In this document: in pieces, positions 386-42,142 of the stretch
How the letters are laid out: every line of letters begins with the position of its first letter
Numbering within the stretch: position 1 is the first letter of the stretch
NCBI GenBank assembly: GCA_046881825.1
Contig: JBKSMS010000010.1
Coordinates: forward strand, 12,924-76,923
Length of the DNA stretch: 64,000 bases
Reading direction: 5' to 3'
Source: Alphaproteobacteria bacterium
Lineage (GTDB): Bacteria; Pseudomonadota; Alphaproteobacteria; Rs-D84
Program-made: the position numbers and the translations under genes
The notes under the pieces: generated by a model
What the model was told of the DNA's origin: nothing
Seen by the model: the letters and a program-made list of their open reading frames with translations, nothing else
Database searches by the model: none

Positions 386-1531
386 TTATATATTGTCCAA
401 TAAGTTCTTCATAATGTTTTCTACTAACTTTGGTGGAATACCTTCACCGACAACTTGACGTATCAGCTTTTCATCGGCCCAATCAGGAACATTCCAATCT
501 GTTGGGATAGAAAAAACGATAAATAATTCATACAATGTTAAACATCTTGGGTCTGAATATAAAATTTCCCCAGTTGCAGATTGATATTTTTTGCCAGGAT
601 GTACACAACACAAAGAAGATATAACACCATTATTTTGAGTGATAGTTCTGCTTGGTTTGTTCCAATCAAATCTTCTATATGTATTATAGTGTCCATTGAC
701 TCTGGTACCATCATCTTTTTTAGGATAAAATACTTCATTATCAAAAGCAGTTTTTCCACTTGGTGTATGCATCATAGCTATTACATGTTTTTTTGCATGT
801 TTGGGGGGGGTATGAAATTTGGATAATTTTTCTGCATTATGCTTTTTTGTTTCAAAATCCGGAAATAACTTGATTGTTTCTTCATAGCCTTCTTTAAGCA
901 TTGGGTCAACGGAAGGCAAGTTGTATAATACATCTTTTAATGTTTTTTCTGGTTTTGGTGCAGGCATTTCCCATTTATATTTCATATCTTTGCGTGTTAA
1001 TAAGAATATGTTTCTTTTACGCATTTGTGGTACATCATAATCTTTTGCACAAACAATATTTTGTTTTGCAAAATAGTAATCATTATCTAATTGTTGATGT
1101 ATGTATTCTGGAATCAATAATGTTTTATCCTCAACTTTAATTTTTGTTTTTAATAATTGTGGTACATTTTCTAAGAATATATATTTAGGTTTTATTGCTT
1201 TTATCACTTGTATTGCATAATAAATTAATTGATTGCGCTGGTCTAATGGGTCCATTTTACCGGCTAAACTCATGCCCTGACACGGCGGAGTTGCCAACAA
1301 AAGTTCCACATTAGATTTTTTGCATTCTGTGATGATTTTATTAATAATTTCTTCGTTAGTGATATCGCCTTCAATCATATTAACATCGGGATATAAATGT
1401 CTGTAAAATTTTACTCGAGTTGCGTCTATTTCGTTAGCAACTTTAACATCTATACCGATGTTTTTAAAATAACATTCTGCTACACCAACATTGGCAAATA
1501 AAGAAACCGCATTTATTTTTTTCTTAGACAT
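386..1531 (-). CDS. DNA (cytosine-5) methyltransferase, R-M system subunit, paralog A
   Basis: SLFANVGVAE (motif I variant), PPCQGMS (motif IV PCQ) and ENVPQLL (motif VI ENV). It is 381 aa and clearly paralogous to the next ORF. Confidence 0.85.
   Translation of the reverse strand: MSKKKINAVSLFANVGVAECYFKNIGIDVKVANEIDATRVKFYRHLYPDVNMIEGDITNEEIINKIITECKKSNVELLLATPPCQGMSLAGKMDPLDQRNQLIYYAIQVIKAIKPKYIFLENVPQLLKTKIKVEDKTLLIPEYIHQQLDNDYYFAKQNIVCAKDYDVPQMRKRNIFLLTRKDMKYKWEMPAPKPEKTLKDVLYNLPSVDPMLKEGYEETIKLFPDFETKKHNAEKLSKFHTPPKHAKKHVIAMMHTPSGKTAFDNEVFYPKKDDGTRVNGHYNTYRRFDWNKPSRTITQNNGVISSLCCVHPGKKYQSATGEILYSDPRCLTLYELFIVFSIPTDWNVPDWADEKLIRQVVGEGIPPKLVENIMKNLLDNI
795..802. repeat. G8/C8 homopolymeric tract inside the coding sequence of methyltransferase paralog A (encodes T-P-P), followed by an A7 run
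   Basis: gtttgggggggg is seen directly. A run of eight G is rare in an AT-rich genome. Confidence 0.9.
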
Positions 1532-1542
1532 ATTAACAACTT

Positions 1543-2688
1543 TTATTCTGGTATATTCTTCATGATGTTTTCTACCAATCTTGGTGGAATACCTTCACCA
1601 ATAACTTGTCTTACAAAATGGTCTGATGCCCAAGACGGAATATCCCAATTTGTTGGTAAAGATGTGATTATCATTAATTCATATACTGTTAAAACCCTAG
1701 GGTCTGAATATAAATCATATCCTTCTTTATCTTTTCCTATGTATCTTCCTGGATGAACATTATTTTGTGAACCTATTGTACGATTATACATAGTGACAGT
1801 AAAAGCAGGTTTATCCCAACATTGTCTTTTATAGGTGTTTTTGAAACCTTTTGTAAAACTTCCATCAAGTTTTTTTGGTTTAAACTTATCTATATTATCG
1901 AATGCTGTTTGTCCACTCGGTGTATGCATCATGGCAAATACTTGTCTATAAACGTGTTTTGGTGGATAGAACCATTTAGAAATACTCAAAGCTTTTTTTC
2001 TTTTTTCTTCATATTGCGGAAATATTTTTGCTGCTTCTGATTTTGATAAATCTGTTATTTCTGGGTCTAACTCAGGTAAATCCCCGATAGCATCTAACAT
2101 AGTTATTTGTTTTGTGTGTTTTTTAGGAAAATCCCATATTTTTTTTATGTCTTTACGTGTTAACAATATGATAGCTCGTTCTCTTTGTTGTGGAACACCG
2201 TAATCACAAGCATTTATTAAAAATTGTTTGTTAAAATTATAATGTTTACCTAGTTCTTCCATAAGGTATTCAGGAATTTTTAACACTTTACCATTTATAT
2301 TTATCGGTGTTATTAGTTGCTCTGGAACATTTTCTAAAAAAACATACTTTGGCATTAATTCTTTGATTATGTTAACGGCAGGACAAATCAGATAATTTCG
2401 TGAATCTGACTTATCTTGTTTTCCTGCTGTGCTCATACCTTGACACGGGGGTGTTGCCATTATTAAGTCGATTTGTTCTTTTTTTGATGCTTCAATTATT
2501 TGTTTTTGAATATTTTTATCGGTTATATCGCCTTCAATCATATTAACATCTGGGTATAAATGCCTATAAAATTTTACACGTTGTGGTTCAATTTCATTTG
2601 CAACACAAACACGGACATTGGTTGTATCAAGATAAGTTTCAGCAATACCTACATTGGCAAACAAAGAAAGTGCTTTAATTTTTGGCAT
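1543..2688 (-). CDS. DNA (cytosine-5) methyltransferase, R-M system subunit, paralog B
   Basis: LSLFANVGIAE, PPCQGMS and ENVPEQL motifs. It is 381 aa and has long identical blocks with paralog A (YRHLYPDVNMIEGDIT, RQV.GEGIPP.LVENIMKN). Confidence 0.85.
   Translation of the reverse strand: MPKIKALSLFANVGIAETYLDTTNVRVCVANEIEPQRVKFYRHLYPDVNMIEGDITDKNIQKQIIEASKKEQIDLIMATPPCQGMSTAGKQDKSDSRNYLICPAVNIIKELMPKYVFLENVPEQLITPININGKVLKIPEYLMEELGKHYNFNKQFLINACDYGVPQQRERAIILLTRKDIKKIWDFPKKHTKQITMLDAIGDLPELDPEITDLSKSEAAKIFPQYEEKRKKALSISKWFYPPKHVYRQVFAMMHTPSGQTAFDNIDKFKPKKLDGSFTKGFKNTYKRQCWDKPAFTVTMYNRTIGSQNNVHPGRYIGKDKEGYDLYSDPRVLTVYELMIITSLPTNWDIPSWASDHFVRQVIGEGIPPRLVENIMKNIPE

Positions 2689-3272: not shown

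Positions 3273-3283
<11 letters not shown>
3077..3283 (+). CDS. Hypothetical small protein immediately upstream of and overlapping the recombinase gene
   Basis: 68-aa ORF, translationally coupled to the recombinase. Confidence 0.3.
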
Positions 3284-4901
<1,618 letters not shown>

Positions 4902-25777: not shown

Positions 25778-25852
25778 GGCAGCGTAGCTCAGTGGTAGAG
25801 CAGAGGAATCATAATCCTTTGGTCGGGGGTCCGAATCCCTCCGCTGCTACCA
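25778..25852 (+). tRNA. tRNA with a CAT anticodon. It is elongator Met or Ile2-lysidine type; the acceptor and anticodon-stem pattern resembles ileX-type tRNAs. CCA is encoded.
   Basis: GGCAGCGTAGCTCAGTGGTAGAGCAGAGGAATCATAATCCTTTGGTCGGGGGTCCGAATCCCTCCGCTGCTACCA gives a complete cloverleaf. Confidence 0.85.
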
Positions 25853-25861
25853 GAATAAACA

Positions 25862-25886
25862 AACGACCCGATGGGTCGTTTTTTTA
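25862..25886 (+). terminator. Rho-independent terminator after the tRNA
   Basis: acgaccc-gat-gggtcgt followed by TTTTTTT. Confidence 0.65.
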
Positions 25887-26021
25887 TTCTGTGCGTCGGG
25901 GTGGTGAAGGGCACCCAGATGGGGGTCCGACCCGCAGGCAAAAGGCAGACAGAAGTATGCCGGTCCCCCGAAGTTTTAACGAAGGGGGATTTGCCCAGGG
26001 GAATGAAGCGCAGCGGAATCA

Positions 26022-26039
26022 ATCCCTCCGCTGCTACCA
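26022..26039 (+). repeat. Direct partial copy no. 1 of the tRNA(CAT) 3' end (18/18 nt, atccctccgctgctacca). An att-type scar.
   Basis: Exact match to tRNA positions 59-76. It is preceded by a GC-rich spacer holding a degenerate T-arm copy (gggggtccgaccc). Confidence 0.7.
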
Positions 26040-26045
26040 AAATTC

Positions 26046-26073
26046 AAACCGCCCGTTTGGGCGGTTGTTTTTA
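26046..26073. terminator. Bidirectional terminator hairpin
   Basis: aaccgccc-gttt-gggcggtt followed by GTTTTTAT. The same stem recurs at 33126-33144. Confidence 0.55.
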
Positions 26074-26934: not shown

Positions 26935-27233
26935 ATTGTTCCCTTTATTTTATGTGTTGTTCTGGTTAAGAGCAGAGTACACAAACAATTTGATTTTTTC
27001 CATATTTATTTTCTGAGATTATTTTATCTTGCTTTTCTAAATCAGATTTCTGTATAGTTTAATTCAAGGAAGGAAAGGATAACTGTCAGATGTGGTTATT
27101 TGTTCTGGCTTCTTTGGTTTTTTTGAGAAACAATGACAAAAATGGCGACCATCTGGCCGCCGTTTTTTTTGCATTATTTGCTAATATTCATAAATTATGG
27201 TATTATTGCGGTTAGAATGTATGAGGGATTATT

Positions 27234-28978: not shown

Positions 28979-30097
28979 TTATCTTTCCGGGGATGGCGAT
29001 TGTAATGCGTTGGATTTTTCAATTTCGTCCATCGTAACTGCAAATGCATCGGTGCCGTCTGCGCATTTAATATCAGGTTCAAACCCGTTTGTTTCAAAAT
29101 CTTTTATGCTTAGTTCACGATATACTGCGCCAACAGTGAACTTCATATGTGTATATGGTAATAAAATATATTGGTTGTATCCATATACTTCGCATCCGTT
29201 TGTGTTTGTGCCGACAATGGTTGTTTTGGGATAGTGTTTCATTCTGAAAATAAACATTTCTGCCGAAGAAGAAACGCCACGATTTGTTAATATATATACT
29301 GTATGTCTTGCGTTTTTGGGGTCGTATTTTTGTGTTGGTTTAATACTATTGTCGTGGATTATAAACGGGTCGTCTAGTGAGTCTGTGTCAAAATTGTTTC
29401 CAATTCGTTCTGGATAAAGTTTGTGTACATGCTTTGCATCGGGATTGTTACGAATGATTTCTTTGTTTGCATTTGGATATTTTTGTCCAAGTATATATTC
29501 AGCAATCTTGTCAGTGGGACGATTGTCGCCACCACCACTATCGCGAAGGTCGATGATAAGTGTTTTTGATTGTGACAGAATTGCGCGCCATTGTTTTTCA
29601 AATATTTTGCGTTCCGCGTCTGTCCATCCAGATAGTGTTGGTACTGCTATGATTCCAATATCACCACGTTGTTCGGTATGGAATTTTTTACCGCTTGCAA
29701 TATTTTTTCCGACATTTGGTCTTGGCTTGCGCAGTGCGGTGCGCGCACCCATGTTTTGCCCAACCATGTTCAGTTGTATATGGTTATCTGGTATAATCTC
29801 AATCGCAGGGCGCAGTTGTTCCAGAAATTCTGCCGATGTCATATCGTGTGCATTTTTATGAACATCAATCAATGTCTTCAGGATTTTGCGCTTTAGCACC
29901 TCATTATGAAATGGCCAACCACAATATACATTTATTAAAACTCGTGCAAAGACCGATACTTCATGTTTAACCTGTTCGGCGGTCAGTTTGGTATTTGGGG
30001 TCTTAGATTTTGTGTTCCCGGCTTCAACTAAATCTTCCGTTTCGGAATCTCGTAATAAAAATTCTTCCATTTCACTGATGGTTGGTATTTTGGTCAT
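28979..30097 (-). CDS. S41-family peptidase (C-terminal processing / tail-specific protease-like)
   Basis: LIIDLRDSGGGD and NRGVSSSAEMF (the S41 catalytic Ser region). 372 aa. Confidence 0.65.
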   Translation of the reverse strand: MTKIPTISEMEEFLLRDSETEDLVEAGNTKSKTPNTKLTAEQVKHEVSVFARVLINVYCGWPFHNEVLKRKILKTLIDVHKNAHDMTSAEFLEQLRPAIEIIPDNHIQLNMVGQNMGARTALRKPRPNVGKNIASGKKFHTEQRGDIGIIAVPTLSGWTDAERKIFEKQWRAILSQSKTLIIDLRDSGGGDNRPTDKIAEYILGQKYPNANKEIIRNNPDAKHVHKLYPERIGNNFDTDSLDDPFIIHDNSIKPTQKYDPKNARHTVYILTNRGVSSSAEMFIFRMKHYPKTTIVGTNTNGCEVYGYNQYILLPYTHMKFTVGAVYRELSIKDFETNGFEPDIKCADGTDAFAVTMDEIEKSNALQSPSPER

Positions 30098-30130
30098 ACA
30101 GTCACCATAACTTATTTATTTTACTGAGTA

Positions 30131-30354
30131 TTATTTTAACACAATTTTGGGGTTTTTGCCAGTTGTATATGGATGATTTAAGATGGGTAAAAACTTTACA
30201 TAGAAAAATGCTTAAAAAAGGCGGAAATGTGGGTGGTGTAGCGATTTTTGTTAAAGTGATTTTTGGATTTAATCTGATTAACGCTTATGGACAATTTTAC
30301 ATATACTAGACATAGAAAATTGGTGTGCCGGTGAAAGTGGCGGATTTCTGCGGG
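30131..30354. repeat. Island repeat copy R1 (about 225 bp), immediately 5' of the S41 peptidase start. Followed by tRNA fragment no. 2.
   Basis: Near-identical to 39916-40139. It shares the core ...aaaaactttacatagaaaaatg...gattaacgcttatggacaattttacatatac...gacatagaaaattggtgtgccggtgaaagtggcggatttctgcgg with R2 and R3. Confidence 0.85.
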
Positions 30355-30387
30355 GTGCGTGAGGGAAAATACTTTGTGCGCTGGTAT

Positions 30388-30414
30388 ATCATAATCCTTT
30401 GGTCAGGGGTTCGA
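30388..30414 (+). repeat. Partial tRNA(CAT) copy no. 2 (anticodon loop to T-arm, 25/27 nt, diverged)
   Basis: atcataatcctttggtcaggggttcga versus tRNA atcataatcctttggtcgggggtccga. Confidence 0.6.
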
Positions 30415-30512
30415 CAAAAAAGCAGGTTTTGCAACTTTGTTTTGTTGTTCAAGCGATAATTTAACTCAATTATCTGGGCTTATTGCGGATTTTAAATTTT
30501 TGTTATTTTCTA

Positions 30513-30896
30513 TTACTTTTTTTCAACTAAGCCTCTGTCACTCCATCTTGAAAATAATTTTTTTATTTCTAACACATCGTCATTAGATCTGCTCAATTTT
30601 TGTGCCGATGTAAAATCACCGAAATCCATAAGTTCCATATGCAGCTTGCCGCCGGAATCTCGATAAATTGCAAAATTATGCCATATATCATTATGTATAA
30701 GTCCGTTGTTATTCATATTTTGTATTTCACTTAATATTGTATTTTGTTCTTCGATAGTAATTGGTTTGTTTCTCAAACACTCAAGTATTTCTGCATCCTT
30801 CCTAAGCTCATCAACACTATCTACATGCGTGGCTTCCATAATAAAATATTGTGTATCTGGTGTTCTTGGCAATGTTATTTCAGGATGAGCATCCAT
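30513..30896 (-). pseudogene. Fragment of a protein-kinase-like (APH/Kdo-kinase type) gene, likely a pseudogene
   Basis: GLIHNDIWHNFAI...MELMDFGD (catalytic loop and DFG) in only 127 aa. Frame decay appears downstream. Confidence 0.4.
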
Positions 30897-31061
30897 AAAT
30901 GCTTTCAGTACTGTTTGATCGTCCCATCAGCAGAAACAGATGTTTTCTATTTTTTCAACTTTCGAACTAGGTGAAAGTGTTGTCTTACAAAAGAAAACGT
31001 GCACTTAAGGGCAAGTTTTGAAACTGTGATTATGGTCGGCCAGTATAACGCAAACCTTTTA

Positions 31062-31631
31062 TTATGAATTGTAAAGCAGTTGTTTTATCCAAGAAATCAA
31101 ATTAAATCTTTGTTTTTCTTGTTTTATATATTTGGGTGGAATAATGCCTTTTCTAAGCACAATCATATAATGTCGTACTGCGCCATATAGCAATTCATTT
31201 TTTATATCAACCTTTTCCCATGTTAAAGGCGATGTATCAATTTCATTTGGCTTAACTTTATAAAAATAGTTGTCGCACCCTTTGTGTATATGCAGTTTTC
31301 GACCTTTTTTTGCCAAATCGTCCCGACACCATATTGATTCTACAAGGCCGTTTTTGATTAAGTCGTCCAGTTCAAAAGAAAACAAGATAGAACTTTTTAC
31401 CATTTTTTTCAGAATTGGGTCATTTCCACGCCATTTCACCGGTTCGGTTAAACAAGAAATGCTTCTGCTGCGCCCAGGAAATGTTTTGTCCATCCATGCA
31501 ATAACATCTTTGCGTTTGTTTGATTTTACGTATGATGAATATCGTTTTAGGTCTGTTGGATGCTTTGCGTATGAAAATAAACCATTGGTCAATATAGTGT
31601 TATTCTTTGGGGCATAGTGATACAGTTTCAT
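31062..31631 (-). CDS. Hypothetical protein (island cargo)
   Basis: 189-aa ORF. Confidence 0.4.
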   Translation of the reverse strand: MKLYHYAPKNNTILTNGLFSYAKHPTDLKRYSSYVKSNKRKDVIAWMDKTFPGRSRSISCLTEPVKWRGNDPILKKMVKSSILFSFELDDLIKNGLVESIWCRDDLAKKGRKLHIHKGCDNYFYKVKPNEIDTSPLTWEKVDIKNELLYGAVRHYMIVLRKGIIPPKYIKQEKQRFNLISWIKQLLYNS

Positions 31632-31672
31632 TTTGATTCCTTATAGTAAATATAATAGCAAATTGTGACGAA

Positions 31673-31850
31673 TTTTTACCAGTTAAAAACTTTACATAGA
31701 AAAATGGTTAAAAAATGGCAGAAATGTGAGTGGTGTAGCTGTTTTTAGGTAAGTGCTTTTTGTATTTAATCTGATTAACGCTTATGGACAATTTTACATA
31801 TACCAGACATAGAAAATTGGTGTGCTGTGGGAAGTGGCGGATTTCTGCGG
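31673..31850. repeat. Island repeat copy R2, immediately 5' of the 189-aa gene. Followed by tRNA fragment no. 3.
   Basis: Matches the R1/R4 core but lacks the 25-nt ttgtatatggatgatttaagatgggt segment. Confidence 0.8.
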
Positions 31851-31883
31851 AGTTCGTGTGGAAAAATATTTATGCGCTGAAAT

Positions 31884-31928
31884 ATCATAATCCTTTGGTC
31901 GGGGGTCCGAATCCCTCCGCTGCTACCA
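31884..31928 (+). repeat. Partial tRNA(CAT) copy no. 3 (anticodon loop to CCA, 45/45 nt identical)
   Basis: atcataatcctttggtcgggggtccgaatccctccgctgctacca is identical to tRNA positions 32-76. A terminator hairpin follows at 31936-31965. Confidence 0.85.
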
Positions 31929-32071
31929 AAAATTCAACCCCGATTTATTCGGGGTTTAATTTTTGATATAGTCGCGAGTGGATGAGGACCCCGGGTCCGA
32001 CAACAAGTAGATTTTGGAAGTGAAACGCACCAAAATCGTTACGGTTGCCCCGCAGACACGAAGTGTTGAGG

Positions 32072-32091
32072 GAATCCCTCCGCCGCTACCA
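32072..32091 (+). repeat. Partial tRNA(CAT) 3'-end copy no. 4 (19/20 nt), followed by a hairpin terminator
   Basis: gaatccctccgccgctacca; cccgg-tgtt-ccggg + T6 at 32098-32118. Confidence 0.7.
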
Positions 32092-32456
32092 GAATTTCCC
32101 GGTGTTCCGGGATTTTTTATTTAACAAAAATTTCCCGATTTCGCCCGAATTTATCAGTTTTAGCAGATATATTTACATGCGTAATCCTTTTGCTTGCTTT
32201 ACACTATGAATTATAAAGGGGAATACACAGAAAGTCGCGGCAAAAGGCTGCGAACGATGACAAAGGTTTACAAAGGGGTATGACTCTTTACAAAAGTGAT
32301 ATAAATGTATTTAAAAGTTTTTCATATGAACAATAAAATAGTACTTGATTTTTTGTATCCATTTGGATACAATACGGATGTATAATAAACCAAAAAGGAT
32401 TAAGATGAAAAGAAGGGGCGTAGAGGCTGGACGTTATCAGTCGGGAGAAAAACAAA

Positions 32457-33990: not shown

Positions 33991-34028
33991 AATAATATAA
34001 AAATAAATGAGCGCCATACGGCGCTCAT

Positions 34029-37000
34029 TTATTTACTCTCTTGTTCTATAAACTTTTTTAATTTAATAACTTCCCTATCTTTTGATCTAAACCAACTTGT
34101 TGACCATATTCTATAGAATTTATATCCATAGCTTTCTAGAATTTTTTGACGCTGCATATCTTCTGCAAACGCTTCTTCAGAGCCATGATATGCTTTCCCG
34201 TCACATTCCAGAGCTATATCCTTGCCGCCAACTTTCAACAAAAAGTCAAGTCTATATCCCCCAACTTTGTATTGAGGCTTAATAGCATCTTGTGGCAGTA
34301 TTTTTAATAACTCTTCATACACTTCTTCTTCAAATGGCGATTCTGTTAATCCTTCAGCGGAACTATTTGTATCACGTCTAGGTGTTTCATAAGAGTATTC
34401 TTTTATCGTTTTTAAAACAGTATCTACTGTTGCAAGATCGCCAAGTGCATGTGCTTTCACATAGGCTAAGTAAGCATAAAATACAGCTATGCGGTTGTTT
34501 TCCTGCTTTTCTTCTAATCTGGATTTATAGTCAGCAAATTTCATCTCTGGAATTGAGGTCACTAAAAACAGTTGCTGTTTTGCTCGTGTTATAAGTACAT
34601 TAAGCAGCCTATATCCTTCATCCCTATTTATAACAAACTGTTCTTTAAACTTACCGTCATGAGCAGGTCCGTATGTTGTGGAAATAATGATAATATCTCT
34701 TTCGTCACCTTGGATATTTTCTAGATTCTTTACAAACAAAGGATCTTTATGTTGTTCCAGTTCTGCATATATCTTGGCGAATTCTGTATCTTCTGCTGCA
34801 ACCTCATGTAACATCAATTTAATTAAATTGCGTTGCTGCACATTAAATGTTGCAATACCAACAGATGGCAGTTTCCCAGGATACATGGTAGGCAATGCTT
34901 TTATTATCTCAATAACTTTATATGCCTCCTTTTCATTCATTCTATCTGCATACACACCATCAACATGGTAATATGTAAATGGGGTATTTGTAGCAATGCG
35001 TGCAGGCAATGGACACAAATTACAGCCATAAAAAGCGCAATTTGAAAACTCAATCAATGCAGGATGCTTACTTCTGTAATGGAAATCTAAATAAGAAGCA
35101 AATTCTTTGACATTTTTAAAGCCCTCTGCGTATTCAAGTAAAGATTCTGAGTCAAGTGGCGCTAAATCAAAACCGTCGCCATCACCATCGTTCCCATCAA
35201 CGTTCCCTCCATCCATATTTTTTGCAAACCAGTTAGACGGAGGCATCTGATGTTTATCTCCTGCTATGATTTTATATTGTCCACGTATCATTGAGGTGTA
35301 AACATCTTCTATTCTTAACTGACTGGCCTCATCAAATATTACCAGATTAAACAGCCCCTGTTTTAATGGAAGCAAGGCATTCGCAACAATTGGGTTAACC
35401 ATTATTACGGGGAATAAATCAGTAAATGCGTCAAACTCTTTGTCAATAATTTGTCTCAAAGACAGTTTCTTAGCGTATTTTCCTCTTTTTAATGCAAACA
35501 ATGTTTTGAAACCATATTTACTATCCAGGGTCGCAATTGCATTTTCTCGTTCATAATACCAGGTTTTAAAGATTTTTTTCGTATTATTCTTTTGTAGTTT
35601 TATAAACAACTCTCTCAATGAGGCCAATTCTGGCTCTTTTGCAGATGTTAAAAACTGTTTCTTTGTCTTTTTGGCATGATTTAACAAGAAGTAATAATAA
35701 TAAACAGCTTGGAATAAATCTTCCCAATAAGAATCATCTTGCTCAAGCAAAAGAGAATCAAACAATACTACATCTCTTTTATACTCTTGTAGCCATGAAA
35801 CATATATTTCTAACTCATCAAGTTTATCTAACAACGAAACTAGCTTTGTCTTAATTTTTTCCGCACACTCTTTGGCACCTTGGGTTGTTCTATAATCAAA
35901 ATCCTTTGCTACAACACCATTAAAACTATTAGCAACAGTATCCTTTACCTCTTCGTAAATCTGTTGGCCTGCCACTATAGAGTTTAATATATTGTGCAGA
36001 TTATCTACTTCAGATACACGTTCTTTAAGCTTATTTTGTATATCTTCTAGTTCTAATGCCAGATTTTTCTGTCGTGCATGCAAATCCGCGCTTATATCAT
36101 TTACATTGCTTTCAATATCAGCTAAATGAGATCTGATATGTTCATAAATTAGATTTTGAGTATTTTTGGTTTGAATAGAAACGTTTTCTGCTTCTTTCTT
36201 GATCGATAGCAGGGCAGCACTTTCACAGTCATTATACGAACAAAAATCTCCATATTTTGTTGTATACTCATCTATTTTTCTTAACAACTGCTTGTAATTC
36301 TTACGTACTTTTTTTGCATATTTATGACTTTCTGAAAGCTTTTTAGAGAAAAGCCTTGTTACAATATTTGAATTATAAGCATTAAAATCTTCCCCAAGTA
36401 TTTCAATTCCTTCTGCAAAAGCCTCTTGAATATCTTCTACATCATCCAAAATAGAATAGAGTCTTCTAAGCTTATCCTTAGCATTTTCATCTAACTGCAT
36501 ACTTTCGCATTTGCAATTAAATCTTCTGGCAACAGTAAGTATATCTTCACATAACGCTCCTGCGCTTTTAATCCAATCAGCCAGATTATCTTTACTTTCT
36601 GTTATTATATTGTGTTTATTTTGCAATTCGCTTAATTTTACCTGACATTCGCGCATAGCATTATCAAAATGTTGTACACTTTGAATTTTTCCTTTATCTA
36701 CAATTTGTAGCAAATCAATATCCTTGCCACAAGACTTTGAAACGATAGATAGTTGATTGTTTATTTCGGCAATCATATCAACAAATTCTTGTTTTTTACC
36801 TACACTCAATAATTTTGAAGCGTTTGTGGAGTTTGCCTTTATTTCATTACAAATCCCCAAGGACTTGGATAGTTTATCAGTCTTGGTATACATGGATGTT
36901 GTGCCAATATCTAAGATTGTATTATCAATAAAGTTGATAAGCTTATTGATATGCTTTACGGCAACATCTATATTCTTTTCAATCAAAATTTTTCCACTAA

Positions 37001-38606
37001 CAGATAAATCGATTTCTTTATCCAAATTAAACAAGTCAAACGAGGTTATATCTATATGCTTGCAGGCGGAATGTGTTTCTGCCCCACGTTTGACCAAATT
37101 ACAATAATTTACAAATTCTGCAGAATTAAATTCCCAACCTGTGGCTACATGCTCCAGATTATCTCTAATTGATGCAAAGGCATCACGTTTGGATTTCTTT
37201 AAGAACAAACCAATCAAATCAGACCATGTTTTTTGTTCAAAAATAGGTTCGCTAGAAGCTTTGTATGAAGCGTTAATAGAATCTCTTAATCTATTAAAAT
37301 TTTCTTGATCTCTTTCAAACTCCACTTCATTAAATGCTTTGGTCGGATTGTATTGCTGTAAAGCACGTGCTTTGTCGACCACAGCTCTGCGGTCTTTGTT
37401 AACATCATCAACAACTATACAAAAAGTGTCTAAACCCTTTTCCGACAAATTGTGTTTCAAGACGTCTAATGCAGTTTTCTTCTCACAGACAACCAATGTC
37501 TTGGCACCATTTGCCAGTGCGTTAGAAATGATCGCTGAGATTGCCTGACTCTTACCTGTCCCCGGAGGCCCTTGAATAATCTTAAACTCATTGTCATTTA
37601 GAGTTCTTATTATTTCTTCTTGACTAGGATCTGTATCAAAGGAAGCCTCAGATGAAGTAGAAAAACGCTCTAATTCCATATCTTCCGCATTAAACTGATC
37701 TATATTTTTTTGTAATTCTAAAACGGATTCTATAATGGTTTCTTTTTGTGAACGAAAAAGCCCAAAGACCCCAGACCACTGAACAAAACCATTACCAGAG
37801 CATAATTTTTCCAAATGCTCTTTTGTGCCAACAGGTTCCAATTTCAGAGACAGATCGTCAAATTTTATATTCAATTTCTTCAATATATCCTTCAGATACT
37901 TTTGTATTTCATTTTCTTGAAGTACCCCATCGTCAATATCTTCTATATCCAGGCGTTCCAATTGAAGTTTTTCTGAATTTTCAATGTACGACATTAAAAT
38001 TTCATTCATTTTGATTGGACTATCTTCGTTTTTTGAAATAATCCACTCATTTTTACGGTTAGACTTTCTGATATCCAGCGACCACAAGAACAAAGGAGCT
38101 ACGATAGTCTTTTTTTCATCTTTCTTGTCTGGCAATACCAGCAATGGATACCCAAAGGCAAAATTTTTCAGTCCGGTATCAATAAAAGAATCTTCGTTAT
38201 CTATAGCCATAGAATCTAGGCGCTTTCCAACGATAACAAGCCTGTCTTTTATTTCTGCATCCATACGGGTTAATTTCTTGTCTTCCCAAGAAAATCGGAA
38301 ATCAAATTTATCTTTAGTCAATAGAGTTTCTAAAAACTTCTTTGCATATGTATCTTTTTTTGTTTTTGATGTGTCAGAAAACAAATTTAAATCTGGTTCT
38401 ACGTTGGCTATAGATAAGTCGCATAAATCTAATCTGTTTTTTAGTCGACCAGGCACAGCCATCAAATGTATTGGCGTACGTCCAACCAAGCCTGTTAATT
38501 TCTTATAAATGCCTTCCAAAAACTTTTTATCAAATTTTATTTGTGACTTCATGATAAACTCCGACACTATTTCTTTAATTATACAATATATATTCCTAAT
38601 AATCAA
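34029..38606 (-). CDS. Giant (1525 aa) Upf1-like SF1 helicase with an N-terminal DUF4011-like region and a C-terminal DUF559/Vsr-like endonuclease domain. Defense-island type.
   Basis: Walker A GPPGTGKS, DEASQ (motif II), GDKHQMPP (motif III), ITRAK (motif VI), and a C-terminal GGYRLDF...ECDG.AYHG..E....D..R...L...G restriction-endonuclease-like patch. Confidence 0.85.
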   Translation of the reverse strand: MIIRNIYCIIKEIVSEFIMKSQIKFDKKFLEGIYKKLTGLVGRTPIHLMAVPGRLKNRLDLCDLSIANVEPDLNLFSDTSKTKKDTYAKKFLETLLTKDKFDFRFSWEDKKLTRMDAEIKDRLVIVGKRLDSMAIDNEDSFIDTGLKNFAFGYPLLVLPDKKDEKKTIVAPLFLWSLDIRKSNRKNEWIISKNEDSPIKMNEILMSYIENSEKLQLERLDIEDIDDGVLQENEIQKYLKDILKKLNIKFDDLSLKLEPVGTKEHLEKLCSGNGFVQWSGVFGLFRSQKETIIESVLELQKNIDQFNAEDMELERFSTSSEASFDTDPSQEEIIRTLNDNEFKIIQGPPGTGKSQAISAIISNALANGAKTLVVCEKKTALDVLKHNLSEKGLDTFCIVVDDVNKDRRAVVDKARALQQYNPTKAFNEVEFERDQENFNRLRDSINASYKASSEPIFEQKTWSDLIGLFLKKSKRDAFASIRDNLEHVATGWEFNSAEFVNYCNLVKRGAETHSACKHIDITSFDLFNLDKEIDLSVSGKILIEKNIDVAVKHINKLINFIDNTILDIGTTSMYTKTDKLSKSLGICNEIKANSTNASKLLSVGKKQEFVDMIAEINNQLSIVSKSCGKDIDLLQIVDKGKIQSVQHFDNAMRECQVKLSELQNKHNIITESKDNLADWIKSAGALCEDILTVARRFNCKCESMQLDENAKDKLRRLYSILDDVEDIQEAFAEGIEILGEDFNAYNSNIVTRLFSKKLSESHKYAKKVRKNYKQLLRKIDEYTTKYGDFCSYNDCESAALLSIKKEAENVSIQTKNTQNLIYEHIRSHLADIESNVNDISADLHARQKNLALELEDIQNKLKERVSEVDNLHNILNSIVAGQQIYEEVKDTVANSFNGVVAKDFDYRTTQGAKECAEKIKTKLVSLLDKLDELEIYVSWLQEYKRDVVLFDSLLLEQDDSYWEDLFQAVYYYYFLLNHAKKTKKQFLTSAKEPELASLRELFIKLQKNNTKKIFKTWYYERENAIATLDSKYGFKTLFALKRGKYAKKLSLRQIIDKEFDAFTDLFPVIMVNPIVANALLPLKQGLFNLVIFDEASQLRIEDVYTSMIRGQYKIIAGDKHQMPPSNWFAKNMDGGNVDGNDGDGDGFDLAPLDSESLLEYAEGFKNVKEFASYLDFHYRSKHPALIEFSNCAFYGCNLCPLPARIATNTPFTYYHVDGVYADRMNEKEAYKVIEIIKALPTMYPGKLPSVGIATFNVQQRNLIKLMLHEVAAEDTEFAKIYAELEQHKDPLFVKNLENIQGDERDIIIISTTYGPAHDGKFKEQFVINRDEGYRLLNVLITRAKQQLFLVTSIPEMKFADYKSRLEEKQENNRIAVFYAYLAYVKAHALGDLATVDTVLKTIKEYSYETPRRDTNSSAEGLTESPFEEEVYEELLKILPQDAIKPQYKVGGYRLDFLLKVGGKDIALECDGKAYHGSEEAFAEDMQRQKILESYGYKFYRIWSTSWFRSKDREVIKLKKFIEQESK

Positions 38607-38649: not shown

Positions 38650-38795
38650 GTATGATTAAGTAGGGGTAAAAACTTTACATAGAAAAATGGTTAAAAAATG
38701 GCGGAAATGTGAGTGGTGTAGCGGTTTTTAGGTAAGTGCTTTTTGTATTTAATCTGATTAACGCTTATGGACAATTTTACATATACTGGACATAA
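38650..38795. repeat. Island repeat copy R3 (truncated), immediately 5' of the giant helicase start
   Basis: Shares ...gggtaaaaactttacatagaaaaatggttaaaaaatggcggaaatgtgagtggtgtagcggtttttaggtaagtgctttttgtatttaatctgattaacgcttatggacaattttacatatactggacata with R2. Confidence 0.8.
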
Positions 38796-38808
38796 TGTTG
38801 GACATGTT

Positions 38809-39888
38809 TTAATAGTCGAATGCCTGTTGTGCTTGTGCCCTTTTTAACTCGTCCATACTGAACGGTCTTTGTTGAACTTGTTTGCCAAGTTCTTCTGTTG
38901 CTGAACGCAATGATTCTGTTCTACGTTCACGTTCTATTCCGCGTTTCTCTTCTATTATTTCTTGCAATTCTTCGGGAGGCAGTTCTTGTTCTTCTGGGGT
39001 TAGGTCGGATAATATTTTTAATTCACGTTCTATTTGTTTGTGCACGCCAGGTGACCAGTATTTTTCGTTTGCTACCTGTGCCAAGAATTTTTTTGCATCT
39101 TCAAGTGAAACGCGACTGGCTTTTTCCAGAAATACTTCGTGGTCAGTAAAAGGTTTGTCCAGTTTCGCCCTAATCATATATGGTTCGCCATTTCTGAACG
39201 TCATCAAATGTTTGAACGATTTGCCAACTTGGAAATCGTCTTTGGAAATTCTTTTTGTAAACTCACCTTTGGGAAAGGTGGGGTTTCTTGGTTCTATTAT
39301 AATCCAATCACCATTATTTAGTTTTACACAAGGAACTGTGTGCCCTGAACGGCCGTTCAGCAAATGGTCCCAGACGGTTGTGAACATAAACTTGACGTAT
39401 TGTTTTCGTTCTGAATGTTCTTTTGTAAATTCATCTATAAACGCAACAGCACCATTTGAACAAGATGTTGTGAAGCCATATTTCATAAATATACCTGGTG
39501 TGGCATTTAATTTATTGCGTTTATCGTCATAGTTTTTGAGGTTTTTTTTCAGTTCTTTTTTGGAAAGTTTTGGTATTACTTTTACGATTTCTTTTATTTC
39601 ATCCCCGATTGTTTTTTTAAATTCTGATGGGGTTTTAGCGTGGCTTTTTTCGTTTCTTTGAATTTTTTTGAATAAAACACACCAAATAAATACATCAAGG
39701 TGTTCGAGTGGTTCGTGTTCTGTTTTGCCAGTTTTGTTTAATATATGCTGGTTCGCGGCTGCGATTAACGTAGGCTCTGTTTTTAATGCATCGGTGATAA
39801 GATTTTTTAAACTGCTCAATCCTGTTTTTTTGTCTCTTAACTTGTTTATAGTTTCGTTTATTGCGGATAATCTTTCTTCGTCTGTCAT
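38809..39888 (-). CDS. Hypothetical protein (island cargo)
   Basis: 359-aa ORF with no motif recognised. Confidence 0.45.
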   Translation of the reverse strand: MTDEERLSAINETINKLRDKKTGLSSLKNLITDALKTEPTLIAAANQHILNKTGKTEHEPLEHLDVFIWCVLFKKIQRNEKSHAKTPSEFKKTIGDEIKEIVKVIPKLSKKELKKNLKNYDDKRNKLNATPGIFMKYGFTTSCSNGAVAFIDEFTKEHSERKQYVKFMFTTVWDHLLNGRSGHTVPCVKLNNGDWIIIEPRNPTFPKGEFTKRISKDDFQVGKSFKHLMTFRNGEPYMIRAKLDKPFTDHEVFLEKASRVSLEDAKKFLAQVANEKYWSPGVHKQIERELKILSDLTPEEQELPPEELQEIIEEKRGIERERRTESLRSATEELGKQVQQRPFSMDELKRAQAQQAFDY

Positions 39889-39915
39889 GGTTGCTCCTGA
39901 TGATTTATTTTATTG

Positions 39916-40139
39916 ATATTTTAACACAATTTTGGGATTTTTGCCAGTTGTATATGGATGATTTAAGATGGGTAAAAACTTTACATAGAAAAATGGGGCA
40001 AAAATGGCGGAAATGTGAGTGGTGTAGCGATTTTTGTTTTAGTGAATTTTGTATTTAATATGATTAACGCTTATGGACAATTTTACATATACTGGACATA
40101 GAAAATTGGTGTGCCGGTGAAAGTGGCGGATTTATCCCG
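39916..40139. repeat. Island repeat copy R4, immediately 5' of the 359-aa gene. This is the right end of the island, and no tRNA fragment follows.
   Basis: Near-identical to R1 over about 220 bp. Confidence 0.85.
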
Positions 40140-40372: not shown

Positions 40373-42142
40373 ATGTTATCTTTGAAATCTAAATACAGAA
40401 CGCATACTTGCGGCGAATTAAACGAAAAAAATGTTGGTGAAACTGTGACGCTATCTGGGTGGGTTCATCGTAAACGCGATCACGGTTCTTTGTTGTTTGT
40501 TGATTTGCGTGATAATTATGGAATAACTCAGTGTGTATTTGATGGGGGCGATGAAAATCTGGAAAAAATTCGTCCTGAATCTGTTATTCAAATTACTGGC
40601 AAAGTTGTTGCGCGTGATAAAGATGCCGTTAATGATAAAATTCCAACAGGGCATATCGAAATTCAATCTGGTAAATGGGAAGTGTTAACTAATGCCGAAG
40701 TTTTGCCTTTTCAGGTATTTGGTGATGAAGATACAAGTGAAGAATTGCGCTATCAATATCGTTTCTTGGATTTGCGGCGTGAAAAATTGCATCACAATAT
40801 TTTAATGCGGAACAAGATGATTAAATGGTTGCGTGATAAAATGTGGGATTTGGGATTTTCTGAATTTCAAACACCACTGCTTACCGCTGATTCGCCAGAA
40901 GGTGCACGTTGTTTCTTAGTGCCAAGTCGTTTGCATCATGGAAAATTTTATGCGTTACCACAGGCACCACAGATGTTTAAACAACTATTGCAAGTATCTG
41001 GATTTGATAGATATTTTCAAATTGCACCTTGTTTTCGTGATGAAGATTTACGCGCAGACAGATTATTAGAATTTTATCAATTAGATATCGAAATGTCTTT
41101 TGTTGATTTACCTGAAATTCAGGCGGTTGGGGAACAAGTAATCCCAGAAATGGTTCGGACTTTTGCACCTGATGCAAATGTTTATCCAGAAATTCCGCAT
41201 ATATCTTTTGATGATGCTATGTTGAAATATGGGTCTGATAAACCTGATATGCGTAATCCTATTTTAATCAGTGATGTGACAGAAATATTCCGTGGTTCTG
41301 ATTTTGGAATTTTCGCAAATGCGATTGAAAATGGTGCCGTAGTGCGTGCAATACCAGCACCAAATTCTGCTGAGAAACCTCGTTCTTGGTTTGATAAATT
41401 GGGTGAATATGCTGTCAAAGAATTGGGGCTTGGCGGATTGGGATATATTGTGTTCGCTGAAGAAGCAAAAGGGCCTGTGGCTAAAAAATTAGACGCAGAA
41501 AGAATTAAAAAATTACACGAAATCGCAGGGGAAAAATCTTCTCTTTTCTTTATCTGCGATAATGTGGATGTTGCTGCCAAAGCAGCAGGTCGTTTGCGTA
41601 ACAAATTGGGTGCTGATTTAGGTTTGGTAAATGAACGCGATTTTGCGTTTTGTTGGGTTGATAATTTCCCGTTCTTTGAACCAGATGAAAATCGTGGTGG
41701 TGCGCCAATGTTTACGCATAATCCTTTTTCGTATCCTTTGGCGACAATGGAAGAATTATCAACAAAAGACCCGTTCACTATCAAAGCAGCGCAATTTGAT
41801 ATGGTCGTCAATGGTCTTGAAATTTGTAGCGGGGGGCTTCGCAACTATAATCCAGAAGTTATGAAGAAATGTTTTGATATTGCTGGATATTCAATCGAAG
41901 CAGTTGAAAAGAATTTTAATGCTCTTTATACTGCGTTCAAATATGGCGCACCACCACATGGTGGATGTGCTTTTGGAATCGATAGGTTGGTTTCAGAAAT
42001 ATTGGGTGACGGTGACAGTGTGCGCGAAACCGTTGCGTTTCCGGCAAATCAACGTGGTCAAGATTTGTTGATGGGGTCGCCTAATGAAGTAAGTGAACAG
42101 CAATTGCGCGATGTTCATATCAAAATTCGTAATAAAAATTAG
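40373..42142 (+). CDS. aspS: Aspartate--tRNA ligase
   Basis: 589 aa. N-terminal anticodon-binding OB fold and a class II core with the FRDE..R motif, GGxAFGIDR and QAPQMFKQLL. Confidence 0.9.
   Translation: MLSLKSKYRTHTCGELNEKNVGETVTLSGWVHRKRDHGSLLFVDLRDNYGITQCVFDGGDENLEKIRPESVIQITGKVVARDKDAVNDKIPTGHIEIQSGKWEVLTNAEVLPFQVFGDEDTSEELRYQYRFLDLRREKLHHNILMRNKMIKWLRDKMWDLGFSEFQTPLLTADSPEGARCFLVPSRLHHGKFYALPQAPQMFKQLLQVSGFDRYFQIAPCFRDEDLRADRLLEFYQLDIEMSFVDLPEIQAVGEQVIPEMVRTFAPDANVYPEIPHISFDDAMLKYGSDKPDMRNPILISDVTEIFRGSDFGIFANAIENGAVVRAIPAPNSAEKPRSWFDKLGEYAVKELGLGGLGYIVFAEEAKGPVAKKLDAERIKKLHEIAGEKSSLFFICDNVDVAAKAAGRLRNKLGADLGLVNERDFAFCWVDNFPFFEPDENRGGAPMFTHNPFSYPLATMEELSTKDPFTIKAAQFDMVVNGLEICSGGLRNYNPEVMKKCFDIAGYSIEAVEKNFNALYTAFKYGAPPHGGCAFGIDRLVSEILGDGDSVRETVAFPANQRGQDLLMGSPNEVSEQQLRDVHIKIRNKN

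What the first reader, a model, noticed from the sequence alone, without database searches (positions are those of the whole stretch)
30131..30354. A repeat family of about 225 bp (R1-R4) that always lies directly upstream of minus-strand cargo genes
The four copies are at 30131-30354, 31673-31850, 38650-38795 and 39916-40139. R1 and R4 are nearly identical over about 220 bp. R2 lacks a 25-nt internal segment. R3 is truncated at its gene-distal end.

In R1 and R2 the repeat continues through a conserved tggcggatttctgcgg, a short spacer and then the tRNA fragment. In R4 it ends with ...ggcggatttatcccgg.

No convincing ORF is present; the two track ORFs over it, 30082..30309 and 39861..40058, merely translate the repeat. 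No obvious hairpin terminator lies within it.

There are three candidate functions. It could be an arm-type recombinase binding region, the remains of attP. It could be a shared promoter or 5'-UTR regulatory module, or riboregulator, co-mobilised with cargo genes. Or it could be a small RNA gene.
Basis: seen in the sequence. Interest (0 to 1): 0.65.

Follow-up and report, generated by a model that had tools for sequence, protein, structure and literature searches.

The report
Repeated att-site arm of tRNA-Met islets
The 225-bp repeat is real and is most likely the conserved recombination-site arm left at the tRNA-distal end of small, integrase-less gene islets stacked behind a tRNA-Met gene in a gut alphaproteobacterium with a tiny genome, but no recombinase that would move them was found.

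Summary
Four direct copies (R1-R4) lie at the stated coordinates, and about 130 nt is shared by all four.

The repeat is not local. I found 33 copies, all in one orientation, in 14 species-level Candidatus Enterousia genomes and in metagenome contigs. R is 88-95% identical between species (core 96-98%), while aspS is only 72-78% identical. R therefore travels with horizontally exchanged cargo.

In nine full-length units from the related loci, plus R2 here, R is followed by a decayed tRNA remnant and then an exact copy of tRNA-Met from the anticodon loop to CCA. Further copies are cut short there. The arrays start at the intact tRNA-Met gene. That is the signature of attR junctions.

Conservation within R is concentrated in a 21-nt block and in direct ACATA-type motifs. 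A related site, S, lies downstream of several tRNA 3' ends.

Best reading (confidence 0.5): R is the element-side (P) arm of att junctions of islets that accreted in tandem. R3 is an R/S fusion and R4 is a deletion variant.

Weakness: no tyrosine integrase was found next to any copy.

The small-RNA reading is not supported. A promoter role is possible but secondary. 21 of 25 neighbouring genes start facing R.

The parts
25778..25852 (+). Intact tRNA-Met (CAT). It is the start of the array and the presumed integration target (attL side).
   Evidence: ARAGORN. Rfam tRNA model, 66 bits. A TTGCAA-16-TATAAT promoter lies just upstream.
30131..30354 (+). R1, a full-length copy with the left extension. 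Motif M1 is at 30193-30210, the invariant core at 30261-30314 and motif M3 at 30305-30322.
30336..30414 (+). Right end of R1. It starts at AGTGGCGGATTT and runs through a decayed tRNA remnant of about 50 nt. The tRNA-Met fragment follows at 30388-30414. That fragment is truncated in the T arm, carries a variant T loop (TTCGA) and is fused to X-like sequence.
31673..31850 (+). R2. It lacks 24 nt of the left extension. M1 is at 31689-31706, the core at 31758-31811 and M3 at 31802-31819.
31833..31928 (+). Right end of R2, the decayed tRNA remnant (to 31883), and an exact copy of tRNA-Met nt 31-75 (31884-31928, anticodon loop to CCA). Together these form an attR-type junction.
   Evidence: (D7, 98%).
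32145..32180 (+). S site (CCGAATTTATCAGTTTTAGCAGAT followed by TTTACAT...). It is a diverged relative of the R core and lies downstream of a tRNA 3' end and its terminator. In this window it is internally deleted between two TTTACAT repeats.
38650..38806 (+). R3. The left part and core of R (to 38794) are joined to an S-type right half (GGACATAATGTTGGACAT). The product is an R/S fusion that lacks the tRNA fragment.
   Evidence: (head of L031).
39916..40139 (+). R4, a full-length copy at the far end of the array. After GGCGGATTT it runs into a terminator remnant and then the aspS promoter. The tRNA fragment has been deleted.
28979..30097 (-). Cargo gene whose start faces R1: an S41 peptidase.
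   Evidence: Pfam E = 1.9e-18.
30513..31631 (-). Two orphan cargo genes (127 aa and 189 aa). The 189-aa gene starts facing R2.
   Evidence: no Pfam family.
34029..38552 (-). Cargo gene whose start faces R3: a helicase-nuclease of 1507 aa as called in the public assembly. It is a candidate defence gene with its own TTGATT-17-TATAAT promoter at 38606-38578.
   Evidence: Pfam. PADLOC PDC-S37 E = 5.6e-137 and Hhe E = 3.7e-80. Promoter scan.
38809..39888 (-). Cargo gene whose start faces R4: an orphan protein of 359 aa.
   Evidence: no family. A homologue with R on the same side is present in L001.
25853..26066 (+). X module: a terminator, a GC-rich body of about 130 nt, a 19-nt copy of the tRNA 3' end (26021-26039) and a second terminator. 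It is a separate small insertion at the T loop and is not part of R. A second copy lies at 31929-32112.

Best explanation
R is the element-side arm (the P-arm side of an attR junction) of a family of small integrative islets. These islets inserted into the anticodon-loop-to-3'-end segment of the tRNA-Met gene and accumulated in tandem.

Each unit is built as follows: a tRNA 3' end with its terminator, often an S site, one or a few cargo genes, R, a decayed tRNA remnant, and a tRNA-Met fragment.

The constrained parts of R are a 21-nt block (TTTTGTATTTAAT.TGATTAA) and direct ACATA-type motifs (ACTTTACATAGAAAAATG, TTTACATATAC, AGACATAGAAAATTG). I infer these are binding sites for a recombinase and its accessory proteins supplied in trans.

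Later deletions between short repeats produced R3 (an R/S fusion) and R4 (tRNA fragment lost).

Shown: the anatomy, the conservation pattern, the link to tRNA-Met fragments, and exchange between species.

Inferred: that the motifs bind a recombinase, that integration was integrase-mediated, and that the system is still active.
For: 1. R is followed by an exact copy of tRNA-Met nt 31-75. This is seen complete in nine units from eight related loci and in R2 here. Copies in L004, L007, L016 and R1 are truncated. The identity block always begins at the first base of the anticodon loop. The arrays begin at the intact tRNA-Met gene.

2. All 33 copies have the same orientation.

3. R is 88-95% identical between species and its core 96-98%. 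aspS is 72-78% identical. The neighbouring helicase cargo is 98-99% identical in three species. R therefore belongs to a horizontally moving pool.

4. The most divergent copies keep only block A and the ACATA motifs. The 18-nt motif is repeated 112 bp apart within R and occurs nowhere else in the window (7 matches against 0.83 expected).

5. S, a relative of the R core, follows 7 of the 24 tRNA 3' ends tabulated (an eighth sits behind L017's variant tRNA). Conservation stops at the outermost motif on both sides.

6. The tRNA fragment of R1 carries a T-loop variant that differs from this genome's own tRNA-Met. This is expected if older junctions keep older 3' halves.

7. The same helicase cassette is joined to three different sequences to the right of R. 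This shows recombination within R.
Against: No tyrosine integrase was found in the window. It was also not found in about 50 ORFs flanking R in 20 loci. Some of these were scanned with Pfam and the rest were read by eye only.

The only recombinase in the window is a large serine recombinase at tRNA-fMet, 21 kb away. It has no homologue in any R locus.

No phage, plasmid or viral contig carries R or the 45-nt tRNA block.

Only about half of the copies whose right end can be read keep a tRNA fragment.

Left ends are heterogeneous (S, S2, X), so a single two-armed attP is not established.

The sequence immediately left of the anticodon loop shows no dyad symmetry with the right side.

The right-hand break points of R are not at a single nucleotide (after GACATA, after GTGGAAA, or after GGCGGATTT).
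Confidence: 0.5

Rival explanations
1. R is a fossil att arm that now serves only as portable homology. The units were created once by integrase-mediated insertion. Today they are shuffled, duplicated and exchanged between species by homologous recombination or slippage between R, S and tRNA copies, after DNA uptake or transfer by gene-transfer agents. No dedicated recombinase is involved.
For: No recombinase is linked to any copy. The break points differ between copies and lie at short repeats: the R/S fusions share a 19-nt identity, the S site in the window is deleted between two TTTACAT repeats, and R4 and the L008 copy are deleted into a terminator. The same cargo is joined to different right-hand variants of R.
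Against: Block A and the ACATA motifs remain invariant in copies that are otherwise 15-25% diverged. This points to constraint on specific sites rather than on homology in general. Conservation ends exactly at the outermost motifs.
Confidence: 0.2
2. This is an integron-like cassette system. The R core and S are equivalent recombination sites of about 55 bp, playing the roles of attC and attI. Single-gene circular cassettes, each made of a gene plus R, are inserted next to tRNA-Met by an unlinked or unknown recombinase that crosses over near GACATA.
For: S is about 70% similar to the whole R core, not only to the motifs (by eye). Some units hold a single gene of 1.1-1.3 kb (L019 and R3-R4). 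Four classes of sequence diverge at the same point after GACAT. All sites are in direct orientation.
Against: This model does not explain the exact 45-nt tRNA-Met copies that follow R. No integrase lies next to either end of the array. R has no inverted-repeat or hairpin architecture like attC. The site lies 5' of the gene, not 3'. Not all break points fall at GACATA.
Confidence: 0.15
3. R is mainly a shared promoter, operator or 5' leader module that drives or co-regulates the adjacent minus-strand cargo genes.
For: 21 of 25 neighbouring ORFs start facing R, at gaps of 1-330 nt. The left extension of R1 and R4 carries an extended -10 site (CTGGCA-18-TAAAAT preceded by TG). The R(c) variant carries TTGACA-16-TATTTT pointing towards the cargo (read). 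Block A contains the palindrome TTAATC.GATTAA.
Against: Promoter-like hits in the region are no more frequent than in shuffled sequence (51 found against 57.8 expected). The helicase gene has its own 10/12 promoter outside R. Four copies have a plus-strand gene ending at R instead. A promoter role does not explain the link to tRNA fragments. The candidate -10 element in the invariant core (TAAATA) lacks the conserved final T.
Confidence: 0.1
4. R encodes or drives an RNA. Either R itself is a small RNA, or a plus-strand promoter in the core (TTAACG-18-TATACT) transcribes a tRNA-like chimera running from AGUGGCG through the tRNA 3' half to CCA, about 96 nt long and followed by a terminator.
For: AGUGGCG can pair with the acceptor 3' strand CGCUGCU in 8 of 9 units. 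The unit length is constant at 96-97 nt counted from that A. Each unit is followed by a terminator.
Against: No pairs show compensatory changes, and the most divergent copy breaks the stem. The complementarity is explained by the spacer being a decayed tRNA: L001 keeps GCGTAGCTCA and CGCTGCTA. There is no Rfam, ARAGORN or Infernal tRNA call. The fold z-scores are 0.18 and -0.74.
Confidence: 0.04
5. R is a purely local segmental duplication with no wider meaning.
For: R1 and R4 are nearly identical within one 10-kb region.
Against: R is present in 14 species-level genomes and in further metagenome contigs, next to unrelated cargo genes.
Confidence: 0.01

Closest known systems
Tandem genomic islands at tRNA or tmRNA genes made by tyrosine integrases of the anticodon-loop sublocation class. 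Examples are tRNA-linked pathogenicity islands and the ssrA-linked islands of Dehalococcoides (PMC3146451, seen by title and abstract).
   Same: An intact RNA gene sits at one end. Direct repeats of its 3' segment bound each unit. The units are stacked in tandem and carry accessory or defence cargo. Conserved element sequence lies next to the repeat.
   Different: Those islands carry their own integrase, next to the att site in the classical examples (from my own knowledge). None was found here in any of about 25 loci. Many units here hold only one gene.
Cis-mobilizable elements (CIMEs) and site-specific accretion, as described for ICESt1/ICESt3 of Streptococcus thermophilus. This comparison rests on my own knowledge; the term appears in the papers listed.
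   Same: Elements bounded by att sites that lack recombination and transfer genes, stacked in tandem, and presumed to depend on a related integrase supplied in trans.
   Different: CIMEs coexist with a recognisable parent ICE that uses the same att site. No parent element was found here. Half of the R copies have lost the tRNA repeat.
Integron gene cassettes, attC sites, and CALINs (attC clusters that lack an integrase).
   Same: Arrays of mostly single-gene units separated by a conserved site in direct orientation. No integrase lies within the units. Chromosomal arrays show species-level conservation of the site, as with the Vibrio cholerae repeats.
   Different: R has no attC-type dyad symmetry or folded-strand signal. 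It lies 5' of the genes. It is tied to tRNA fragments. No IntI or attI-Pc platform is present.
Minimal mobile elements of Neisseria and similar hotspots maintained by homologous recombination. This comparison rests on my own knowledge.
   Same: Variable cassettes sit between conserved flanks, with no mobility genes. Exchange between lineages is inferred from high cargo identity.
   Different: Those hotspots have no internal repeated site and no duplications of tRNA fragments.

Membership tests
attR/attP arm of a tRNA-targeting tyrosine-integrase element | A direct repeat of the tRNA 3' segment lies at the far end of the element, and the intact tRNA lies at the near end. | tested here: met
   tRNA-Met nt 31-75 is copied exactly after R2 and complete in nine units from eight related loci. 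The intact tRNA is at 25778-25852.
attR/attP arm of a tRNA-targeting tyrosine-integrase element | A tyrosine integrase gene lies within the element, usually next to the att site. | tested here: not met
   No Phage_integrase hit in any Pfam-scanned window ORF or locus ORF. The remaining flanking ORFs were read by eye only. Whole genomes could not be searched.
attR/attP arm of a tRNA-targeting tyrosine-integrase element | Repeated arm-type binding motifs flank the core. | tested here: inconclusive
   Direct ACATA-type motifs are present, conserved in divergent copies and confined to R and S. Binding to a protein cannot be tested here.
attR/attP arm of a tRNA-targeting tyrosine-integrase element | Excision to a circle that carries attP and leaves an empty attB. 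| not testable with these tools
   Short Logan contigs simply end at the repeats and their ends do not overlap.
Cis-mobilizable element (CIME) | Bounded by att sites and lacking recombination and transfer genes. | tested here: met
   Units such as 30415-31928 (window) and tRNA through R in L019 carry only cargo genes.
Cis-mobilizable element (CIME) | A related autonomous element with the same att site and integrase exists in the same taxon. | tested here: inconclusive
   None was found in 20 loci, in viral contigs, or in phage and plasmid collections. Complete genomes were not searchable.
Integron cassette / attC | attC architecture: imperfect inverted repeats that fold as a single-stranded hairpin. 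| tested here: not met
   No inverted repeats. Fold z-scores are 0.18 and -0.74.
Integron cassette / attC | An IntI integrase with attI and the Pc promoter lies next to the array. | tested here: not met
   The array is flanked by tRNA-Met, an ORF with only a sub-threshold DUF1574 hit, and aspS in the window; in related loci PagL-like and membrane-protein genes flank it. There is no recombinase.
Small RNA or riboregulator | A match to a curated RNA family, or a conserved structure supported by covariation. | tested here: not met
   Rfam at gathering and E-value thresholds finds only tRNAs. No pairs show compensatory changes.
MITE or insertion-sequence end | Terminal inverted repeats and target-site duplications. 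| tested here: not met
   No inverted repeats within R or between copies. All copies are in direct orientation.

The most novel reading that the evidence does not exclude
Candidatus Enterousia has genomes under 1 Mb. It may maintain a chromosomal gene-cassette system at tRNA-Met that is functionally like an integron but mechanistically distinct. Single-gene units carrying a conserved site of about 55 bp (the R core, with S as the docking site) would be captured, stacked and exchanged between species. The recombinase would be unlinked or of an unknown type, and the site would sit at the promoter-proximal (5') side of each gene.
Probability: 0.15. Interest if true: 0.75.

Novelty: new variant of a known kind. 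Interest (0 to 1): 0.45.

Why it matters
If the reading is right, this locus is a compact hotspot for acquiring genes from other species in a lineage with strongly reduced genomes (about 0.75-1.0 Mb). Its cargo includes defence genes, toxin-antitoxin genes and orphan genes.

The units contain no recombinase of their own. Finding the enzyme that recognises R, or showing that none exists, would tell how such minimal genomes keep a flexible accessory gene pool.

It would also settle whether att-only islets can persist as a cassette system. The conserved 55-nt core is a ready-made marker for finding these arrays in metagenomes.

Tried and rejected
- Rfam at gathering and relaxed thresholds found nothing for R or X.

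- Single-sequence folding of both strands showed no signal.

- RNAalifold on the unit from the right end of R to CCA predicted an acceptor-like closing stem but no covariation. I now read that stem as a relic of a decayed tRNA.

- RNAalifold on seven X modules gave no consensus structure.

- I considered a hammerhead-like reading of GAUGAG...CGAC in X and rejected it by eye, because an essential A is replaced.

- blastn of R against phage and plasmid collections found nothing.

- Viral-contig scans for the R core and for the 45-nt tRNA block found nothing. The scan for the S motif gave three chance hits in AT-rich phage coding sequence.

- The metagenome scan gave only two real extra loci, L023 and L024. 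L025 was a chance match.

- I looked for circular units among Logan contigs. The contigs simply end at repeats.

- I looked for integrases among about 50 flanking ORFs and found none. I did find a large serine recombinase at tRNA-fMet, but it has no homologue near any R copy, and serine recombinases do not create 45-nt repeats.

- I compared the core with dif/Xer sites and attC boxes by eye and found no convincing match.

- A 15-codon ORF starting at the ATGGAC inside the core has no ribosome-binding site and no conserved length, so I rejected it.

Full report
**Observation.**
- Two sub-motifs of 22 and 31 nt each occur exactly four times in 64 kb. Shuffled sequence gave none.
- All four copies share about 130 nt, from GTAAAAACTTTACATAG to GGACATA.
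- R1, R2 and R4 continue for a further 35-40 nt, to AGTGGCGGATTT.
- R1 and R4 also share a left extension that reaches to within 12-20 nt of the start codon of the neighbouring gene.
- R contains no ORF of note, no terminator and no inverted repeat.

**Setting.** An intact tRNA-Met (CAT) gene lies at 25778-25852, and aspS starts at 40373. The 14.5 kb between them is an island of accessory genes:
- an S41 peptidase, a nucleotidyltransferase and a kinase-like protein;
- a HigB/HigA pair and an HSDR_N nuclease-domain protein;
- a 1507-aa helicase-nuclease that matches the PADLOC candidates PDC-S37 and Hhe;
- several orphan genes.

Partial copies of the tRNA-Met 3' end lie at 26021-26039, 30388-30414, 31884-31928 and 32073-32091. 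All but the truncated 30388-30414 copy, which is fused directly to X-like sequence, have their own terminator. The sequence comes from a Candidatus Enterousia genome (Alphaproteobacteria, order Rs-D84). This is a gut lineage with genomes of about 0.75-1.0 Mb.

**Distribution.** An exact 22-mer from the core found 19 loci in 14 species-level Enterousia or Rs-D84 genomes. A metagenome scan found two more genuine loci. A profile search of all this sequence gave 33 copies. Within every locus they share one orientation. Many contigs end inside R, as expected for a multi-copy repeat.

Between species, aspS is 72-78% identical at the DNA level. R is 88-95% identical and its core 96-98%. The helicase cargo is 98-99% identical in three different species. 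R therefore belongs to DNA that moves between species. It is neither a local duplication nor a vertically inherited regulatory region.

**Anatomy.** Alignment of all copies shows an invariant core of about 54 nt: TTTTGTATTTAAT[C/A]TGATTAACGCTTATGGACAATTTTACATATAC.[A/G]GACATA.
- To its left there are at least three unrelated variants.
- To its right there are two alternative segments of about 27 nt. Both converge again on GAAAGTGGCGG[A/T]TTT.
- The three most divergent copies keep only block A (TTTTGTATTTAAT.TGATT) and the ACATA-type motifs.
- The 18-nt motif ACTTTACATAGAAAAATG recurs 112 bp downstream as ACTAGACATAGAAAATTG.
- This motif is found only in R copies in the window.

In nine full-length units from eight related loci, and in R2 here, R is followed by a spacer of about 50 nt and then by tRNA-Met nt 31-75. 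That fragment is exact and always starts at the first base of the anticodon loop. Copies in L004, L007, L016 and R1 are truncated there.

The spacer looks like a decayed, internally deleted tRNA. In L001 it retains GCGTAGCTCA and CCTCAGCGCTGCTAA. This explains why AGTGGCG at the right end of R can pair with the acceptor 3' strand. RNAalifold finds that stem but no compensatory changes.

**A second site, S.** A sequence of the form CCGAATTTATCAGTTTTAGCAGAT-N3-TTTACATATACTGGACATAA-N4-GGACATAGAAA lies 50-110 nt downstream of several tRNA 3' ends.
- It has the same orientation as R.
- By eye it is about 70% similar to the whole R core.
- Variable cargo begins within a few bases of its last motif.
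- In the window, S is at 32145-32180 and has lost its middle by deletion between two TTTACAT repeats.

S explains R3. R3 consists of the left part and core of R joined to an S-type right half (GGACATAATGTTGGACAT). The same S variant is seen intact in contig L031. Similar R/S fusions occur in L014 and L017. R4 and the copy in L008 end in the remnant of the terminator that normally follows the tRNA fragment, so they are deletion variants.

Of the 24 tRNA 3' ends tabulated:
- 11 are followed by an X module;
- 7 are followed by S (L017's variant tRNA adds an eighth);
- 2 are followed by a different conserved sequence, S2, which also occurs at about 27030-27170 in the window;
- 4 are followed by other sequence, either cargo or the chromosomal flank.

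**Interpretation.** The sequence order R, decayed tRNA, tRNA fragment, terminator, then S or X is what a tandem stack of elements inserted into the anticodon-loop-to-3'-end segment of a tRNA gene should leave. On this reading R is the element-side arm of each attR junction.
- The constrained block and the phased direct motifs fit protein-binding sites in such an arm.
- Conservation that stops at the outermost motif fits the limit of a functional att region.
- The tRNA fragment after R1 carries a T-loop variant that differs from this genome's own tRNA-Met. This is expected if old junctions keep old 3' halves.

**The main weakness.** I found no tyrosine integrase in the window. I also found none among about 50 ORFs flanking R in 20 loci; some were scanned with Pfam and the rest read by eye. 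No phage, plasmid or viral contig carries R or the tRNA block.

The window does hold a large serine recombinase at 3273-4901, abutting tRNA-fMet. It has no relative near any R copy. By established knowledge, this enzyme class does not generate 45-nt repeats.

The recombinase is therefore either supplied in trans or lost. Right-hand break points are not all at one nucleotide, and left ends are heterogeneous. Homologous recombination and slippage clearly contribute to the present arrangement.

**Other readings.**
- *Promoter or leader.* This has some support. 21 of 25 neighbouring ORFs start facing R. The R1 and R4 extension carries an extended -10 site, and the R(c) variant carries TTGACA-16-TATTTT pointing towards the cargo. 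Against it, promoter-like hits are no more frequent than in shuffles, and the helicase gene has its own consensus promoter outside R. A promoter also does not explain the tRNA fragments.
- *Integron-like system.* Here the R core and S would be equivalent recombination sites. This is not excluded. However, R lacks attC architecture, the arrays have no adjacent integrase, and the tRNA fragments are left unexplained.
- *Small RNA.* This is not supported.

**Verdict.** The finding is a real, conserved feature that moves between species. It is best described as the att-site arm of integrase-less tRNA-Met islets. That makes it a variant of the known tandem-island or cis-mobilizable-element theme.

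It has two unusual aspects. No linked recombinase was found anywhere. Many units hold only one gene, which resembles a cassette system. I rate it of moderate interest, and the decisive tests listed separately are clear.

Noticed in passing
window 25853-26066 and 31929-32112; also L001, L004, L005, L007 (two in tandem), L010, L013, L018, L023: X modules. Each has a terminator, a GC-rich body of 100-130 nt in an AT-rich genome, a 19-nt copy of the tRNA-Met 3' end (from the T loop to CCA), and another terminator. At least three body types exist. They follow 11 of 24 tRNA 3' ends. They look like tiny insertions at the T loop, or possibly a tRNA-linked structured RNA. There is no Rfam hit and no consensus fold.
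   Followed up: partly
window 3273-4901 (+), tRNA-fMet 4821-4897 (-), and 386-2688 (-): A large serine recombinase (Resolvase, Recombinase and Zn_ribbon_recom domains). Its last ~27 codons run antisense through the initiator tRNA-Met gene. Two C5 cytosine methylase genes lie next to it. This is probably a separate integrated element at tRNA-fMet. It has no homologue in any R locus.
   Followed up: partly
window 32145-32180; L003, L007, L009, L010, L017, L019, L023, L008: The S site, a diverged relative of the R core, lies downstream of tRNA 3' ends. In L008 it sits with no cargo directly before the conserved membrane-protein gene. In the window it is internally deleted between two TTTACAT repeats.
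   Followed up: yes
window 34029-38552 (-); L010 366-4943; L016 1296-5873: A helicase-nuclease gene of 1507 aa (AAA_11/AAA_12 plus MTES_1575; PADLOC PDC-S37 and Hhe). It is 98-99% identical at the DNA level in three species whose aspS genes are only 72-78% identical. This indicates recent transfer between species.
   Followed up: partly
window about 27030-27170; L005 about 250-400; L001 about 360-500: A second conserved 'left-end' sequence, S2 (..CAGTATAGTTCAATTCAAGGAAGGAAAGGATAACTG..GACAAAAATGGCGACCATCTGGCCGCC). In L005 and L001 it directly follows a tRNA 3' end and terminator. In the window it lies inside the first unit with no tRNA copy next to it.
   Followed up: no
window 30388-30450: The tRNA fragment after R1 has a variant T arm (AGGGGTTCGA against GGGGGTCCGA in this genome's own gene). 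It is fused at CGA to X-type sequence (CAAAAAAGCAGGTTTTGCAA). L016 shows the same fusion.
   Followed up: partly
L023 1265-1305: A 13-codon remnant of the 5' end of the 359-aa orphan gene is still attached to its R copy. The rest of the gene has been replaced. This is evidence for turnover of cargo next to R.
   Followed up: no
window 34001-34034: A perfect 15-bp-stem bidirectional terminator lies between the convergent HSDR_N gene and the helicase gene.
   Followed up: no
L003 3206-4920; L001 3774-4961 and L011 3615-4808; L001 567-1661: Cargo in related arrays includes a likely DarT/DarG pair (a macro domain plus a DUF4433-like protein, judged by eye), a Fic-domain protein (motif HPFNDGNGR), and an orphan protein with an HExxH motif. 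This suggests a mixed repertoire of toxins, effectors and defence genes.
   Followed up: no
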